Assembly (NCBI GenBank): GCA_951406725.2
Contig: OX597821.1
Span: forward strand, 56,978,001-57,042,000
DNA from: Octopus vulgaris
Taxonomy: Eukaryota
Direction of reading: 5' to 3'
DNA length: 64,000 nt
The notes below the pieces were generated by a model. The model searched no databases and was not told where the DNA came from. It saw only the letters and a program-made list of their open reading frames with translations. Every line of letters begins with the position of its first letter. The stretch's first letter is position 1. Both the position numbers and the translations under genes were made by a program. Below, one piece after another: positions 6,605-57,935 of this stretch.

Positions 6605-6674
6605 TTGCTGGAATACTCATTTGGACCGAAGAATATTTTGGATTATTCGGGCTCCGTGTGTTATATCAGTTGGG
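6605..6674 (+). CDS. Class B1 (secretin/PTH-receptor-like) GPCR, internal exon encoding ECL2 and start of TM5
   Basis: ctatttcag|T TGC TGG...GTT GGG|gtgagt; 70 bp; translates CWNTHLDRRIFWIIRAPCVISVG, matching the family CW...WIIxxP motif. Confidence 0.9.
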
Positions 6675-17258: not shown

Positions 17259-17350
17259 CTGAATTTCTGTCTGTTCCTTAACATCGTAAGAGTATTATTC
17301 ACGAAACTGAATTCGCAACAAAACTTGGAATCAAGAAATACTCGTTATAT
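17259..17350 (+). CDS. Class B1 GPCR exon encoding TM5 and ICL3
   Basis: attaccag|CTG AAT...TAT AT|gtaagt; 92 bp, phase 0 to phase 2; LNFCLFLNIVRVLFTKLNSQQNLESRNTRY matches the family NFxxFxNIVRVLxTKL motif; phases fit both neighbouring exons. Confidence 0.93.
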
Positions 17351-26085: not shown

Positions 26086-26221
26086 ACGCTTAGCTAAATC
26101 CATTTCCATACTCATTCCACTCTTTACCGTGCATTTGATTTTTATATTTCAACCTGATGAAGTATCGGGGATACCCGAAATCGTCCTCCTTGCGCTCGAA
26201 ATGTGGTTGAGTTCATTTCAG
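26086..26221 (+). CDS. Class B1 GPCR exon encoding TM6, ECL3 and start of TM7
   Basis: ctatctgcag|A CGC TTA GCT AAA TCC...TTT CAG|gtgagt; 136 bp; RLAKSISILIPLFTVHLIFIFQPDEVSGIPEIVLLALEMWLSSFQ (family consensus RLAKSTLxLIPLFGVHY...SFQ). Confidence 0.93.
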
Positions 26222-26719
26222 GTGAGTTGAAGCATCGTGTTTTTTTTTTTTTTTGTTTGTAAATCTTGCCGTAGTTTCTTTCTCAGTATTTCATATTCTA
26301 ACATTATTCATGTTTTATCACTAATACCTAGTTTTAAAATTTTAATTTTAAAATTTGATAATATTCACTGCGATTAATTTATTGTTATGATAAATGTTGA
26401 AAAAAAATACATATGAGAGTGAGCATGTATAGGTGCGTGTATACGTACGATTTCCTCAATGCCTACATGGAGTTTGATGCGTCGTTCTATCGTTTTGGTT
26501 TTGTCGAAGTGGACGAAGAAATATTTTGGATAAAATTGGTACAGAATCCAGCAGCGACAATATTATGAACATGAAGGCACATATCTAAAAGTAGGTCATT
26601 CGGAATGTATTTCCATGTGTTCATCATTACGTTAACACACACATATATATATATAGATAAATGAATACATATGGATTGCATACCAATACACACATGCCAT
26701 AACATATAGTTGTTTAACT

Positions 26720-27295
26720 GCCTGTAGACTAGAAGGCGTGTAAGAGGAAAAGCCGTGGGGATAAAGATGCAACTTTTGATCGATAGAATGGTGCTGAAAG
26801 ACTGCAAGAAAAACATACTAAACTAGGTATGGCGTGAATCGATTATAAGAATGCTTATGACATAGTCCCGCATTCCTGGATTTCAGAAAGTCTTGAGTTG
26901 ATACAGATGTCTGATAGCATTTCAAATTTTATCAGATCAATGACGAACTAGAATATAGCTTTAACATCGTGTGGAAAAGTTTTGGTGAGGGTTAACATCA
27001 GGAGAAGTACGTTTCAGAGAGATAGTCTGTCACCATTGTTGTTTGCGATTTGTATGATACCTCTCACACAGATATTACGGTAAGTGACATCGGGGTACAC
27101 CTTGAAAAATGGAGAAAAAGAAGTTACCTGTTATATATGGATGACTTAAAGATCTTCGGTAAGAGTGAATGTGAAATAAATGGACAAGATTCAGCAGTGT
27201 AGTAAGGATATCGGGATGGAATTTGGGATTAAAAAGTGTGGTGTGCCTATCATGAAACAAAAGGCAAAGTAGTGTCATTTGATGGTGTAGGACTA
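26720..27295 (+). pseudogene. R4/Dong-like LINE RT fragment in a GPCR intron
   Basis: QLLIDRMVLKDCKK, IDYKNAYDIVPHSWI, FQRDSLSPLLF, LLYMDDLK, DIGMEFG, with stops and frameshifts. Confidence 0.8.
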
Positions 27296-27324
27296 TAATA
27301 AATCTTTTTTGCTTTTCTTTTCAG

Positions 27325-27366
27325 GGTCTCGTGATTGCAATTCTGCTTTGTTTCGCTAACTATGAG
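27325..27366 (+). CDS. Class B1 GPCR 42-bp TM7 exon
   Basis: cttttcag|GGT CTC...TAT GAG|gtaacg; GLVIAILLCFANYE, the characteristic 14-codon TM7 exon of secretin-family receptors (GxxVAxxYCFxNxE). Confidence 0.93.
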
Positions 27367-28706: not shown

Positions 28707-29045
28707 GTGAAAACAGAACTTGCAAGATTTTGGAGGCACCATACTTTTGATCATAACAGCTCGCACCGAGGTTTACCATTTACCAGTCTTTCGGAATACT
28801 TTGCCAAAACTCGACATTCCATAACTGAGCAGAAAATGACCTGTATTGAGGAATCTCATAAAAAGTTTGACGAATACAGTAGTAAAAAAACGAAAGATAG
28901 TGTGAAGGATCAAACAACATGGCAGATTCCAATAAATGAAGACACGCCATTAAATGAACCAAACAGAGACTCCAAATGCCAAGCAAATGGTCACATGAGC
29001 TTTCCATTGCATGATGATTCAGTTTCACACTCAAAAAAAATATAG
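28707..29045 (+). CDS. Class B1 GPCR terminal coding exon (helix 8 and C-terminal tail)
   Basis: ctttattgcag|GTG AAA ACA GAA...; VKTELARFWRHH continues NYE|V into helix 8 (EVxxExxxxW); open to TAG at 29043-29045. Confidence 0.88.
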   Translation: MKTELARFWRHHTFDHNSSHRGLPFTSLSEYFAKTRHSITEQKMTCIEESHKKFDEYSSKKTKDSVKDQTTWQIPINEDTPLNEPNRDSKCQANGHMSFPLHDDSVSHSKKI

Positions 29046-31739: not shown

Positions 31740-34026
31740 ATGGAAAACCCTTCGGTTTTCTTCTTGGAAAACCCTTCGGTAAGTCTGATCTGTCCAACTA
31801 GGTCGGACATCGGCCGACTTAGTAAATCTATCTTGGATACTGTTCTACCCCAAATAACCCCTCTTCTCCCCTTAAACCTATGGCTAAGTACCGATGAAGT
31901 TCTAAAATGGTTTAACTCTCTAACTAATACTAGTAGTCTGTCCTTTATTCAGTTCGATATTAATAGTTAATAGTTATTACTCTAGCATTTCCCCTATCTT
32001 ACTCAACAAATCACTAATATTTGCCATGAATCGCTCCCTCATATCTAGAGAAGAAATCAATATTGTGCTACTAGCTAGGAAGACATTTATAGAATTTGAA
32101 GATAAATTATGGACTAGAGCAGATACACCTAATTTTTTTGATATACCAATGGGTTCCAGTGATTCGGCTGAGGTAACCAATCTAGTAGGCGCATATCTAT
32201 TAAAATGCATAAGCAAGGATATCCCAGAATTACAGGGGGGTCTATATAGGGATGATGCTCTGTTTGTTATCCCTAGTAATAATAAATCTGTTATAGAAAG
32301 GATTAGAAAGAAAATTAATAAGTTCTTTAGGGATTTCAACCTCAGTATAACGTATGAACCGGGCACTAAAATAGTTAATTTCCTAGATATTACGCTAGAC
32401 CTTAACTCCAAGCTACATTACCCATTTAGAAAGGAAGGCGAAATCACGAATTACGTAAATAAATTATCAAATCATCCCCCAAATATTATAGAATCTTTAG
32501 TAAGAAATATTTCATTAAGAATTTCAAAATTATCATCCAATAAGGATATTTTTAACTCCCATTCTGAGCATTATAATGCGGCGTTAACTAAGGCTGGATA
32601 CAACCAAAAGATTACATTCGTTGATAAGGGGAACTCACGTATTCCTAATAATGAAGTTATCAATAATCACGTAAGCAGCAATAAAGACCAAGCCCGAAAT
32701 AATAGTAGAATTAAACTAACGGTAAACGCTAATCTAGCGTACAGGCCCAACAATTCAAATAGAAACATTGACCAGAACATAGGTAACTCGGATAATATTG
32801 AAGTAGATAAACCTAAGATGCACACAAATAAAAATAAAAATAATGGTAATAAATACAATAACTCCGGTGAGATGAATAGTAATAATTCTACGAACCCTAA
32901 ATTTAATAAAAAAGATATATTATGGCTGAATATTCCTTTCAACTGTGCGATACAATCGGATATACAGAACAAATTCAAAGTGATTCTGGAAAAAAATTTC
33001 CCTATCTCTCATAGATATCATAGAATTATTTCTAGGAAAACAGTTAGGATTTCTTATTCAACCCTCCCAAATATGTCCACTTTAATAGCTAAGATTAATA
33101 ATAACAACATTAAACTAGCCAGGAAAGATAGAAATAAAAATAATAATATCAGCATGAATACCAATAGCAATTGTAATAATACTACCAACAATAAAAACAG
33201 CAATAGTAACTATCAAAACATAGGTGAAATTAGTAACCACAGAATGACTAATAACATTAACATTAATAGTAATAATAGCAATGCCGATATTAATAGAAGT
33301 AATAATGTTAATAATAGAAATAATAGAAATAGGGATAATAGAGAAAATAAGGAGAATGAAAATATTAGTGATATCTATAACAACAATATGCAGTCGGATA
33401 AAAAGACTAGCAATAATATTAACATTACCAATAATATAAGAAATCATGGTAGGACTTTAGATCTAAATGATGAAACAGAAGGATCAAGAAATAATAGCAA
33501 TACTTTAGATATCAGCACCAACTATAGAAATGATAATCAAAATAATAGGAACCTAAAACATCTACCCAAGAATAATCCAAAGCCTGAAGGTGTTCCTCCT
33601 GTGTGTAAGTGTAGAATAAAATCAAAATGCCCGGCACCTGGTCTATGTGGGGAAAATAATGTAATCTATAAATGTACCATATCCACGGAGAATAACAAAT
33701 ATTGTTACATTGGATGTACAATTAATTTTTTAGCCAGAGTTAGAAATCACATCTCGACTTTTAAATTACGTCATAAAGCTGGTACCACCACACTTTCAAA
33801 CAAAATCTGGGAACTCAAAAATAATAATAAAAATTATAACCTTAATTGGGAAATAGTTAGGAGAGCAATTCCGTATAAAAATAGTAGGGTTGGTTGTCAA
33901 CTATGCTCCATGGAGACATATGAAATTCTAAAGCATAGAAAACATAGAAACCTATTGAATAACCATATCGAACTAGGTCAAGTTTGTGTCCACGCTAAAT
34001 TGAAGACTTTAAAATATTTTAAATGA
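31740..34026 (+). pseudogene. Naiad-type PLE RT-GIY-YIG ORF, 5'-truncated, with one frameshift
   Basis: LICPTRSDIGRLSKSILD; FDINS/YYSSI (motif A split by a TAATAGT duplication at 31961-31974); FDIPMGSSDSAEV; GLYRDD; VNFLDITLDL; SNHPP; CKCR..CP..C; VIY..YIG.T..F..R..NH; C.LC..E..LLN..EL..C.H. Confidence 0.9.
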
Positions 34027-56819: not shown

Positions 56820-57935
56820 AGACACACACGAAGTCCACTGTTTCAATCATGTCGTTGCAGAATCAGCATTTTGGGTCTGATCCATTTTTCATCACATGGC
56901 CTGGTAGTTCCGGGTTAATAGGCTCTGATCTTGAGTGGCCAGGATGAAACCTTCGCTCTCTGCTTTTAGCCCTGAGCTCGTAGCCATTGATGGGTTTGCT
57001 TCTGGTCAACATCAGCTTGTTTGCTATGGGCCACATATTTGCCGTGCAGAGGTTTCTCCTCCCACCTATCAGCCAATTGCTCATGCGCTTTTTCGTTGCC
57101 ATTATTTTCACCTTCTTTGCAACAATAGTTGCCGTACTTCCCTTGGGTTGTTCAGTTTGGGTATCCTGCACGAGATCAATAGCAAATTTTTTGCTTTCCT
57201 TTATGATAGAATGAAGCTTCTTTCGTCTCTCGTGATTTTCCACGAGCTTTAGCATCCAGTCATTCGTTATTTCAAGATATTTGGCCAGTCCAATTGTGGT
57301 TGTCTTGTAAGCTAGTTCAAATTGGATCAGGCCTCGACCTCCTTGGGCTCTGGGAAGGTAAAGGCAATCTACATCTGCCTTTGGGTGGTGCATCCTATTA
57401 CAACTCAGCAGCTTGCGTATTTTCCTATCTATATTCTTTACTTCACTCATATTCCAGTTCAACACATTGTAGCTATAAGTAACAACTGGAACTGCTAAGG
57501 AATTTATAGATAACACCTTGTTACGTGCATTTAGTTCAGATTTCAGGACTGCACAAACTCTCCTATAACATTCCTTCCTGATCTTCTCTTTCATGCGTGC
57601 ATGCTGAATACCAGAGCCTTCATTTATCCCTAAATATTTGTATGTTTGTTCTTGCTCAAGCTCTCTTATGACTGTGTCAACATCTAACACGACTGAATTT
57701 GTGGTCTTCACTTTCCCTTTCTGGAAAGTGGCCTTGGCACACTTCTCAAGCCCAAACTCCATCCCGATGTCATCACTGAATGCTTTCACAGTGCGCAATA
57801 GGCCTTCAAGTTCATTATCGTCTTTACCATAGTTTTAAGTCATCCATATATAATAGATGGCTTATTTTTTTATTGGCAATTTTATACCCATACCCTGTTC
57901 TGTTTAATTCACTTGTAAGGGGTATTAGGGTTATG
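56820..57935 (-). pseudogene. R4/Dong-like LINE C-terminal RT and zinc-knuckle fragment
   Basis: HLLYMDDLK, FSDDIGMEFGLEKCAK, YKYLG, HHPKADVDCLYLPRAQGGRGL, C*FCNDMIETV. Confidence 0.88.

What the first reader, a model, noticed from the sequence alone, without database searches (positions are those of the whole stretch)
26086..27366. Class B GPCR lacking three near-invariant activation-switch residues
Seen: TM6 reads AKSISILIPLFTVH and TM7 reads FQGLVIAILLCFAN. Established: class B1 receptors conserve T6.42 and Y7.57 of the intracellular HETx/HETY polar network and the P6.47-x-x-G6.50 hinge needed for the TM6 kink; substitution of T6.42 (T410) in human PTH1R causes constitutive activity. Here T6.42 is I (26102-26104), G6.50 is T (26126-26128) and Y7.57 is L (27346-27348), while splice sites, phases and frame are intact. 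Inference: a divergent paralog with altered activation (constitutive, decoy or non-Gs), not an obvious pseudogene.
Basis: partly seen in the sequence, partly recalled or inferred. Interest (0 to 1): 0.72.

Follow-up and report, generated by a model that had tools for sequence, protein, structure and literature searches.

The report
Octopus peptide receptor with rebuilt hinge
This is an intact, spliced octopus hormone-receptor gene in which two of the three flagged changes also occur in other molluscs, but its sixth membrane helix carries changes at the activation hinge not seen in any relative examined, which likely leaves it peptide-activated with weaker or redirected signalling rather than permanently on.

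Summary
The three codons are as reported (I6.42, T6.50, L7.57). The gene has 13 GT-AG coding exons, translates exactly to annotated P0002, keeps H2.50, E3.50 and P6.47, and appears as spliced contigs. The 'three near-invariant residues' framing holds for one residue only. Position 7.57 is Phe in 74 and Tyr in 7 of 89 invertebrate homologues, and the cuttlefish orthologue has Leu there with a canonical TM6. Ile6.42 occurs in 9 of 89. Thr6.50 is unique: 0 of 242 homologues (Gly 228, Ala 14). Best reading (inferred): a Cluster B (PTH-receptor-like) receptor, probably for PXXXamide/QSamide peptides. Loss of the T6.42 lock would be offset by a stiffer hinge and a weaker Gs contact, giving ligand-gated but weakened or redirected signalling. 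Constitutive activity and a decoy role are minority readings; a pseudogene is rejected. Modest interest: a natural TM6 variant with a ready cuttlefish control.

The parts
6605..6674 (+). Coding exon 9 (aa 304-327: ECL2, first half of TM5)
   Evidence: AG/GT ends, exact translation to P0002
17259..17350 (+). Coding exon 10 (aa 328-357: TM5 with N5.50, ICL3); the codon for position 6.36 is split across the next intron
   Evidence: its 3' end is the loose end of spliced contigs
26086..26221 (+). Coding exon 11 (aa 358-403: TM6, ECL3, first half of TM7)
   Evidence: spliced contigs
26102..26104 (+). Ile at 6.42 (usually Thr, the T of HETx); recurrent in other molluscan paralogues
26105..26107 (+).
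26117..26119 (+). Pro6.47, retained
26126..26128 (+). Thr at 6.50 (usually Gly, PxxG hinge); 0 of 242 homologues
27325..27366 (+). Coding exon 12 (aa 404-417: G7.50 to E8.49)
27346..27348 (+). Leu at 7.57 (Phe in most molluscan homologues, Tyr in vertebrates); shared with the cuttlefish and argonaut orthologues
28707..29045 (+). Coding exon 13 (aa 418-529 and TAG stop: helix 8 and C-tail). Exons 1-8 (signal region, ECD, TM1-TM4 with H2.50 and E3.50) lie upstream of the window at G000:C8:56833269-56975052

Best explanation
This is an intact, spliced class B1 receptor of the invertebrate Cluster B (PTH-receptor-like) group whose inner TM6 differs from that of its cuttlefish orthologue at four conserved positions, and it likely remains peptide-gated but with weaker or redirected G-protein signalling. 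Shown: gene integrity, splicing, orthology, the residue frequencies, the clustering of the changes in TM6, and near-identity of the 7TM across three Octopus species. Inferred steps: (1) the intact ECD binds a PXXXamide/QSamide-type peptide; (2) T6.42I removes the E3.50-T6.42 hydrogen bond and loosens the inactive lock; (3) G6.50T puts a beta-branched residue where active structures need positive phi, raising the cost of the sharp TM6 kink; (4) L6.43S weakens a hydrophobic contact to the tip of the Gs alpha5 helix. Steps 2 and 3 oppose each other, so the predicted net result is low basal activity with a smaller TM6 opening and reduced or re-routed coupling. Three paralogues with canonical TM6 would free this copy to specialise. 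L7.57 is an older trait of the coleoid orthogroup, not part of this event.
For: 13 exons, 12 GT-AG introns, translation identical to P0002. HRM + 7tm_2; six ECD cysteines. R2.46, H2.50, N3.43, E3.50, N5.50, R6.37, P6.47, H6.52, Q7.49, G7.50, N7.61 and E8.49 are retained. Exon-joined contigs in 4 of 4 runs and in X19. 7TM 278 of 280 identical between P0002 and P0001 versus C-tail 95 of 103 (Fisher p = 0.0006). The orthologue clade with P0008/P0162 (T6.42, L6.43, G6.50, L7.57) has SH-aLRT 100. The four Octopus-only departures among 76 conserved columns are 358, 364, 365 and 372; 4 random columns fall within 15 residues in 0.12% of draws (post hoc). Literature passages: G6.50 takes positive phi in G-protein-bound structures and G6.50A thermostabilises GLP-1R (PMC10166269); T6.42A raises GCGR basal activity and L6.43 contacts Gs L394 (PMC7355025); T6.42A in GLP-1R gives 30% expression and lower efficacy (PMC5050443). 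Octopus paralogues P0038, P0074 and P0088 keep T/G/F.
Against: No functional data. All effects are extrapolated from vertebrate mutants, and I found no data on Thr at 6.50. Ala6.50 is kept across a gastropod clade (8 of 89), once together with Ile6.42 (Haliotis P0041), and unnamed P0309 has Ile/Ala/Leu at all three sites, so this family tolerates hinge changes. The receptor is not unusually degenerate overall: 13 of 82 homologues depart at as many or more conserved columns, and the rate test against P0008 is not significant (27 vs 17, p = 0.17). The ligand is unconfirmed for any lophotrochozoan Cluster B receptor as of PMC8557429. dN/dS was not computed.
Confidence: 0.5

Rival explanations
1. 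Functionally ordinary receptor: the TM6 changes are tolerated or fully compensate each other, and it signals like its cuttlefish orthologue.
For: Ile6.42, Ala6.50 and Leu7.57 each recur in other invertebrate Cluster B receptors. All other polar-network residues are intact. The overall rate is not significantly raised. Human PTH2R lacks P6.47 and CLR has F7.57 (PMC10166269 passages).
Against: Thr6.50 and Ser6.43 are each 0 of 242, and four changes cluster in one helix.
Confidence: 0.25
2. Decoy or scavenger: it binds peptide through the conserved ECD but cannot kink TM6 enough to engage a G protein, and it clears or buffers ligand, perhaps through arrestin.
For: Hinge Gly replaced by a beta-branched residue, Gs-contact Leu6.43 lost, basic residue at 6.36 lost. 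ECD 94 of 100 identical between P0002 and P0001. Canonical paralogues exist.
Against: R2.46, L3.54, N7.61 and E8.49, which line the Gs pocket (PMC10861504), are retained, and the whole 7TM is near-frozen.
Confidence: 0.13
3. Constitutively active receptor: loss of T6.42 and of the 7.57 aromatic ring breaks the HETx lock and gives tonic cAMP.
For: T410P in PTH1R and T351A in GCGR raise basal activity. Aromatic 7.57 stacks on H2.50 in the ground state.
Against: G6.50T should oppose opening. T6.42A and Y7.57A reduce GLP-1R efficacy. Ile6.42 is common in molluscan paralogues and L7.57 sits with a canonical TM6 in cuttlefish. The ECD is conserved as if ligand still matters.
Confidence: 0.1
4. Decaying pseudogene or sequence error.
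For: None beyond the substitutions themselves; one low-depth contig skips exon 10.
Against: Intact 1590-nt frame, same residues in three named species, spliced contigs, 7TM far more conserved than the C-tail.
Confidence: 0.02

Closest known systems
Public models of this same gene: O. vulgaris CAI9726853.1 (P0002), O. sinensis XP_029639999.1 (P0003), O. bimaculoides XP_052826124.1 (P0001)
   Same: The exons translate exactly to P0002; all three carry I6.42, S6.43, T6.50 and L7.57.
   Different: Their names ('PTH receptor 1', 'GLP-1 receptor') are similarity labels; no description of the TM6 variant was found in the searches run.
Cuttlefish orthologue (Sepia pharaonis CAE1167678.1 = P0162; full-length unnamed P0008) and argonaut fragment GAB1609912.1 (P0164)
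   Same: One clade with SH-aLRT 100; L7.57 is shared; P0008 is 198 of 280 identical in the 7TM.
   Different: The cuttlefish protein keeps R6.36, T6.42, L6.43 and G6.50. The argonaut TM6 is not covered by the fragments found.
Lophotrochozoan Cluster B receptors (e.g. Lymnaea 'Cluster B receptor 2', P0032) and insect iPTH receptors
   Same: Same architecture and tree neighbourhood. Insect members are activated by iPTH/PXXXamide (PMC7224569, passages).
   Different: Most have T6.42, G6.50 and F7.57; a gastropod clade has A6.50; none examined has T6.50 or S6.43.
Human PTH1R (best solved-structure match, E = 4e-81) and its Jansen T410P mutant
   Same: ECD + 7TM, H2.50, E3.50, P6.47, central and cytoplasmic polar networks.
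   Different: T410P is a single activating lesion on an intact PxxG hinge; here 6.42 changes together with 6.43 and 6.50.

Membership tests
Class B1 (secretin-like) GPCR | N-terminal hormone-receptor domain with six cysteines | tested here: met
   PF02793 73.6 bits, cut-off 26.2; Cys 51, 67, 76, 90, 107, 129
Class B1 (secretin-like) GPCR | Secretin-type 7TM domain | tested here: met
   PF00002 224.5 bits over profile positions 5-250 of 250; best PDB sequence matches are PTH1R, PTH2R, GLP-1R
Class B1 (secretin-like) GPCR | Helix anchors S1.50, H2.50, E3.50, W4.50, N5.50, G7.50 | tested here: met
   S160, H185, E256, W283 invariant in alignment A1; N329, G404 present
Cluster B (PTH/glucagon/secretin receptor co-orthologues) | Groups with lophotrochozoan Cluster B receptors in a tree | tested here: met
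   Nested in the 97-row protostome group (SH-aLRT 98) that holds P0032 and insect PTHR-like rows. Caveat: the tree held no calcitonin, Cluster A, CRF or PDF receptors; calcitonin receptors rank lower.
Cluster B (PTH/glucagon/secretin receptor co-orthologues) | Activation by PXXXamide/QSamide (iPTH-type) peptide | not testable with these tools
   Shown for insect receptors; predicted, unconfirmed for lophotrochozoans
Canonical class B1 activation apparatus (a conserved motif set, not the family definition) | P6.47-x-x-G6.50 hinge | tested here: not met
   P-L-F-T; Thr in 0 of 242 homologues
Canonical class B1 activation apparatus (a conserved motif set, not the family definition) | HETx lock (H2.50, E3.50, T6.42, aromatic 7.57) | tested here: not met
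   H and E kept; I6.42 and L7.57. Both variants occur in other homologues.
Canonical class B1 activation apparatus (a conserved motif set, not the family definition) | Central (N3.43, H6.52, Q7.49) and cytoplasmic (R2.46, R6.37, N7.61, E8.49) polar networks | tested here: met
   All retained; position 2.60 was not tabulated
Constitutively active or decoy receptor | Ligand-independent signalling, or binding without G-protein signalling | not testable with these tools
   Needs cell assays

The most novel reading that the evidence does not exclude
A natural class B1 receptor that has given up the glycine hinge: it either signals without the sharp TM6 kink (non-Gs or arrestin-directed) or is a dedicated peptide decoy, fixed by selection in Octopus while its cuttlefish orthologue stayed canonical.
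Probability: 0.17. Interest if true: 0.65.

Novelty: new variant of a known kind. Interest (0 to 1): 0.33.

Why it matters
The sharp TM6 kink at PxxG is treated as the hallmark of class B1 activation. A conserved natural receptor with Thr at 6.50, beside an orthologue about 71% identical in the 7TM with a canonical TM6, would test cheaply whether the glycine hinge is obligatory and whether loss of the T6.42 lock can be offset by a stiffer hinge. The survey also shows that the vertebrate HETY rule does not carry over to molluscs, where 7.57 is mostly Phe and Ile6.42 and Ala6.50 recur. If the receptor behaves normally, the finding is only a footnote on motif tolerance.

Tried and rejected
Alternative canonical TM6 exon: none; 1 hit above threshold in a six-frame scan of the window. 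Lineage-wide acceleration: not supported (27 vs 17 derived sites, p = 0.17; 13 of 82 homologues as deviant). Y7.57 as an invariant: rejected. Run search: no RNA holder listed on record; expression rests only on exon-joined contigs. Wider octopod sampling: X22 did not cover the exons, X15 and X18 gave intron-spanning pieces, and X19 showed 4 other letters over 26086-26204, of which only 2 were listed, both synonymous. The argonaut TM6 was not recovered. dN/dS not computed: no orthologous coding DNA was on hand. The AlphaFold job had not finished, so there is no model and no fold search. Yin 2017, Schipani 1997 and Cardoso 2024 were not held. Earlier scan findings: none by words or sequence; 8 of 86 shown by place, none on this gene. 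Literature searches gave no paper on this receptor's TM6 or on a natural Thr6.50; most subscription journals are outside the library, and no supplements were opened.

Full report
Observation. Alignment to human PTH1R and GLP-2R/PAC1R has no gap over these stretches, so they are positions 6.42, 6.50 and 7.57; P6.47 is intact. Only one TM6-like exon exists in the window.

The gene. The TM6 exon retrieved one protein among 15 candidates, P0001, whose cluster holds models from three Octopus species. A genome search placed the upstream exons before the window. With five fetched stretches, 13 coding exons with 12 GT-AG introns translate exactly to P0002, 529 aa. The protein has HRM and 7tm_2 domains, six ECD cysteines, and intact R2.46, H2.50, N3.43, E3.50, N5.50, R6.37, H6.52, Q7.49, G7.50, N7.61 and E8.49. 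In 4 of 4 runs laid (four coded studies; run type guessed by the tool), single contigs carry exon 11 followed by exon 12 without the intron, with loose ends matching exon 10 (4 of 4) and exon 13 (3 of 4). X19 shows the same in a 2436-base contig. None of the 25 genome matches is an intronless near-identical copy. Between P0002 and P0001 the 7TM is 278 of 280 identical and the C-tail 95 of 103 (Fisher p = 0.0006). This points to purifying selection but is not a dN/dS. A pseudogene is rejected.

How rare the substitutions are. I tabulated the 120 listed of 246 hits and the 150 listed of 2831 representatives; rows are not phylogenetically independent. Among 89 non-orthologous invertebrate homologues: 7.57 is Phe 74, Tyr 7, Leu 3, Trp 1, gap 4; 6.42 is Thr 75, Ile 9, Val 3, Leu 1, gap 1; 6.50 is Gly 80, Ala 8, gap 1. 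The 28 vertebrate rows are all Thr, Gly, Tyr. Among the 150 representatives: 6.42 Thr 121, Ile 13; 6.50 Gly 131, Ala 7; 7.57 Tyr 72, Phe 46, Leu 7. That HMM alignment did not reproduce every column of P0002, but it placed these three correctly. Pooled, leaving out the orthologues (253 rows): 6.50 is Gly 228, Ala 14, gap 11, Thr 0; 6.43 is never Ser in 242 rows with a residue. Of 226 rows complete at the three sites, 1 (unnamed P0309, a long branch among insect-type rows) lacks Thr, Gly and the aromatic together, 3 lack Thr and Gly, and 2 lack Thr and the aromatic. So two of the three flagged changes are ordinary for this family; human CLR also has Phe at 7.57 (PMC10166269 passages).

When they arose. 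The Octopus proteins form a clade with an argonaut fragment (P0164), unnamed P0186 and cuttlefish sequences (P0162; unnamed P0008 is 95% identical to it over 146 aa), SH-aLRT 100 in quick trees. The cuttlefish protein has L7.57 with canonical R6.36, T6.42, L6.43 and G6.50; the argonaut fragment has L7.57, and its TM6 is not covered. L7.57 is therefore an older coleoid trait compatible with a canonical TM6. Of 76 conserved 7TM columns, P0002 departs at 8; P0008 departs at 4 of the same columns, and the other 4 (R6.36I, T6.42I, L6.43S, G6.50T) all lie within 15 residues of TM6. Four random conserved columns do so in 1519 of 1,282,975 combinations; this test was chosen after seeing the data. Against an exceptional reading: 13 of 82 near-complete homologues depart at 8 or more columns, and the rate test is not significant (27 vs 17, p = 0.17). 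Octopus paralogues P0038, P0074 and P0088 keep Thr, Gly and Phe.

Mechanism (inferred). From passages read: HETx stabilises the inactive state, T410P activates PTH1R, G6.50 takes positive phi in G-protein-bound structures and G6.50A thermostabilises GLP-1R (PMC10166269); T351A raises GCGR basal activity and L6.43 lines the pocket for Gs L394 (PMC7355025); T353A in GLP-1R gives 30% expression and lower efficacy, and Y402A lowers efficacy (PMC5050443 table rows); removing the Y7.57 hydroxyl lowers GCGR cAMP by 40% (PMC10861504). That beta-branched residues disfavour positive phi is general knowledge, from no call. I recall, unverified, that many T410 substitutions activate human PTH1R while the equivalent proline does not activate several related receptors; that paper was not held. 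The Octopus changes thus pull in opposite directions: a looser lock, a stiffer hinge, a weaker Gs contact. I put 0.50 on ligand-gated but weakened or redirected signalling, 0.25 on no functional change, 0.13 on decoy, 0.10 on constitutive activity and 0.02 on decay. The likely ligand class is PXXXamide/QSamide: first described in cuttlefish and shown to activate insect PTH-like receptors (PMC7224569 passages; PMC8398477 passages), and predicted but unconfirmed for lophotrochozoans (PMC8557429 passages).

Relation to what is known. It is a class B1 GPCR by domains and anchors, and a Cluster B member by tree position, a group described as the most diverse in molluscs (PMC7200681 passages; PMC11551080 passages). 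The tree lacked calcitonin, Cluster A, CRF and PDF receptor rows. It fails the canonical PxxG and HETx motif tests. The octopus class B expansions described in PMC6408891 (passages) are adhesion-type and Methuselah-like groups; those passages do not mention parathyroid-like receptors. Ten library searches found no account of this TM6 variant, but the main molluscan class B1 review was not held and no supplements were read. The structure prediction did not return.

Verdict. New variant of a known kind; interest 0.33.

Noticed in passing
window 26126-26128: The Thr6.50 codon is ACC; A-to-I editing of its first base would give Ala, the only other non-Gly residue seen at 6.50. Contigs of 4 runs show no other letter, but contigs drop minority variants.
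   Followed up: partly
window 17259-17350: One short, low-depth contig of run X1 joins exon 9 directly to exon 11, skipping this 92-base exon and shifting the frame (record 1); probably a minor mis-spliced form.
   Followed up: no
window 31924-34026 (+): A 700-aa stop-to-stop frame that by eye resembles a Penelope-like retroelement (reverse transcriptase plus GIY-YIG-like end; label recalled). No Pfam hit at E <= 0.001.
   Followed up: partly
window 26760-27270 (+) and 56863-57834 (-): LINE-like reverse-transcriptase remnants (label by eye). The first lies in the intron between the TM6 and TM7 exons, has in-frame stops and is multi-copy by contig depth.
   Followed up: partly
proteins P0011, P0020, P0024, P0035, P0036, P0041, P0044, P0056: A gastropod Cluster B clade (SH-aLRT 100) has fixed Ala at 6.50; Haliotis P0041 adds Ile6.42. 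An independent natural hinge variant.
   Followed up: partly
protein P0309 (unnamed representative): An insect-type Cluster B sequence with Ile6.42, Ala6.50 and Leu7.57 together, a convergent version of the flagged triple; long branch and short ICL3, so the model may be imperfect.
   Followed up: partly
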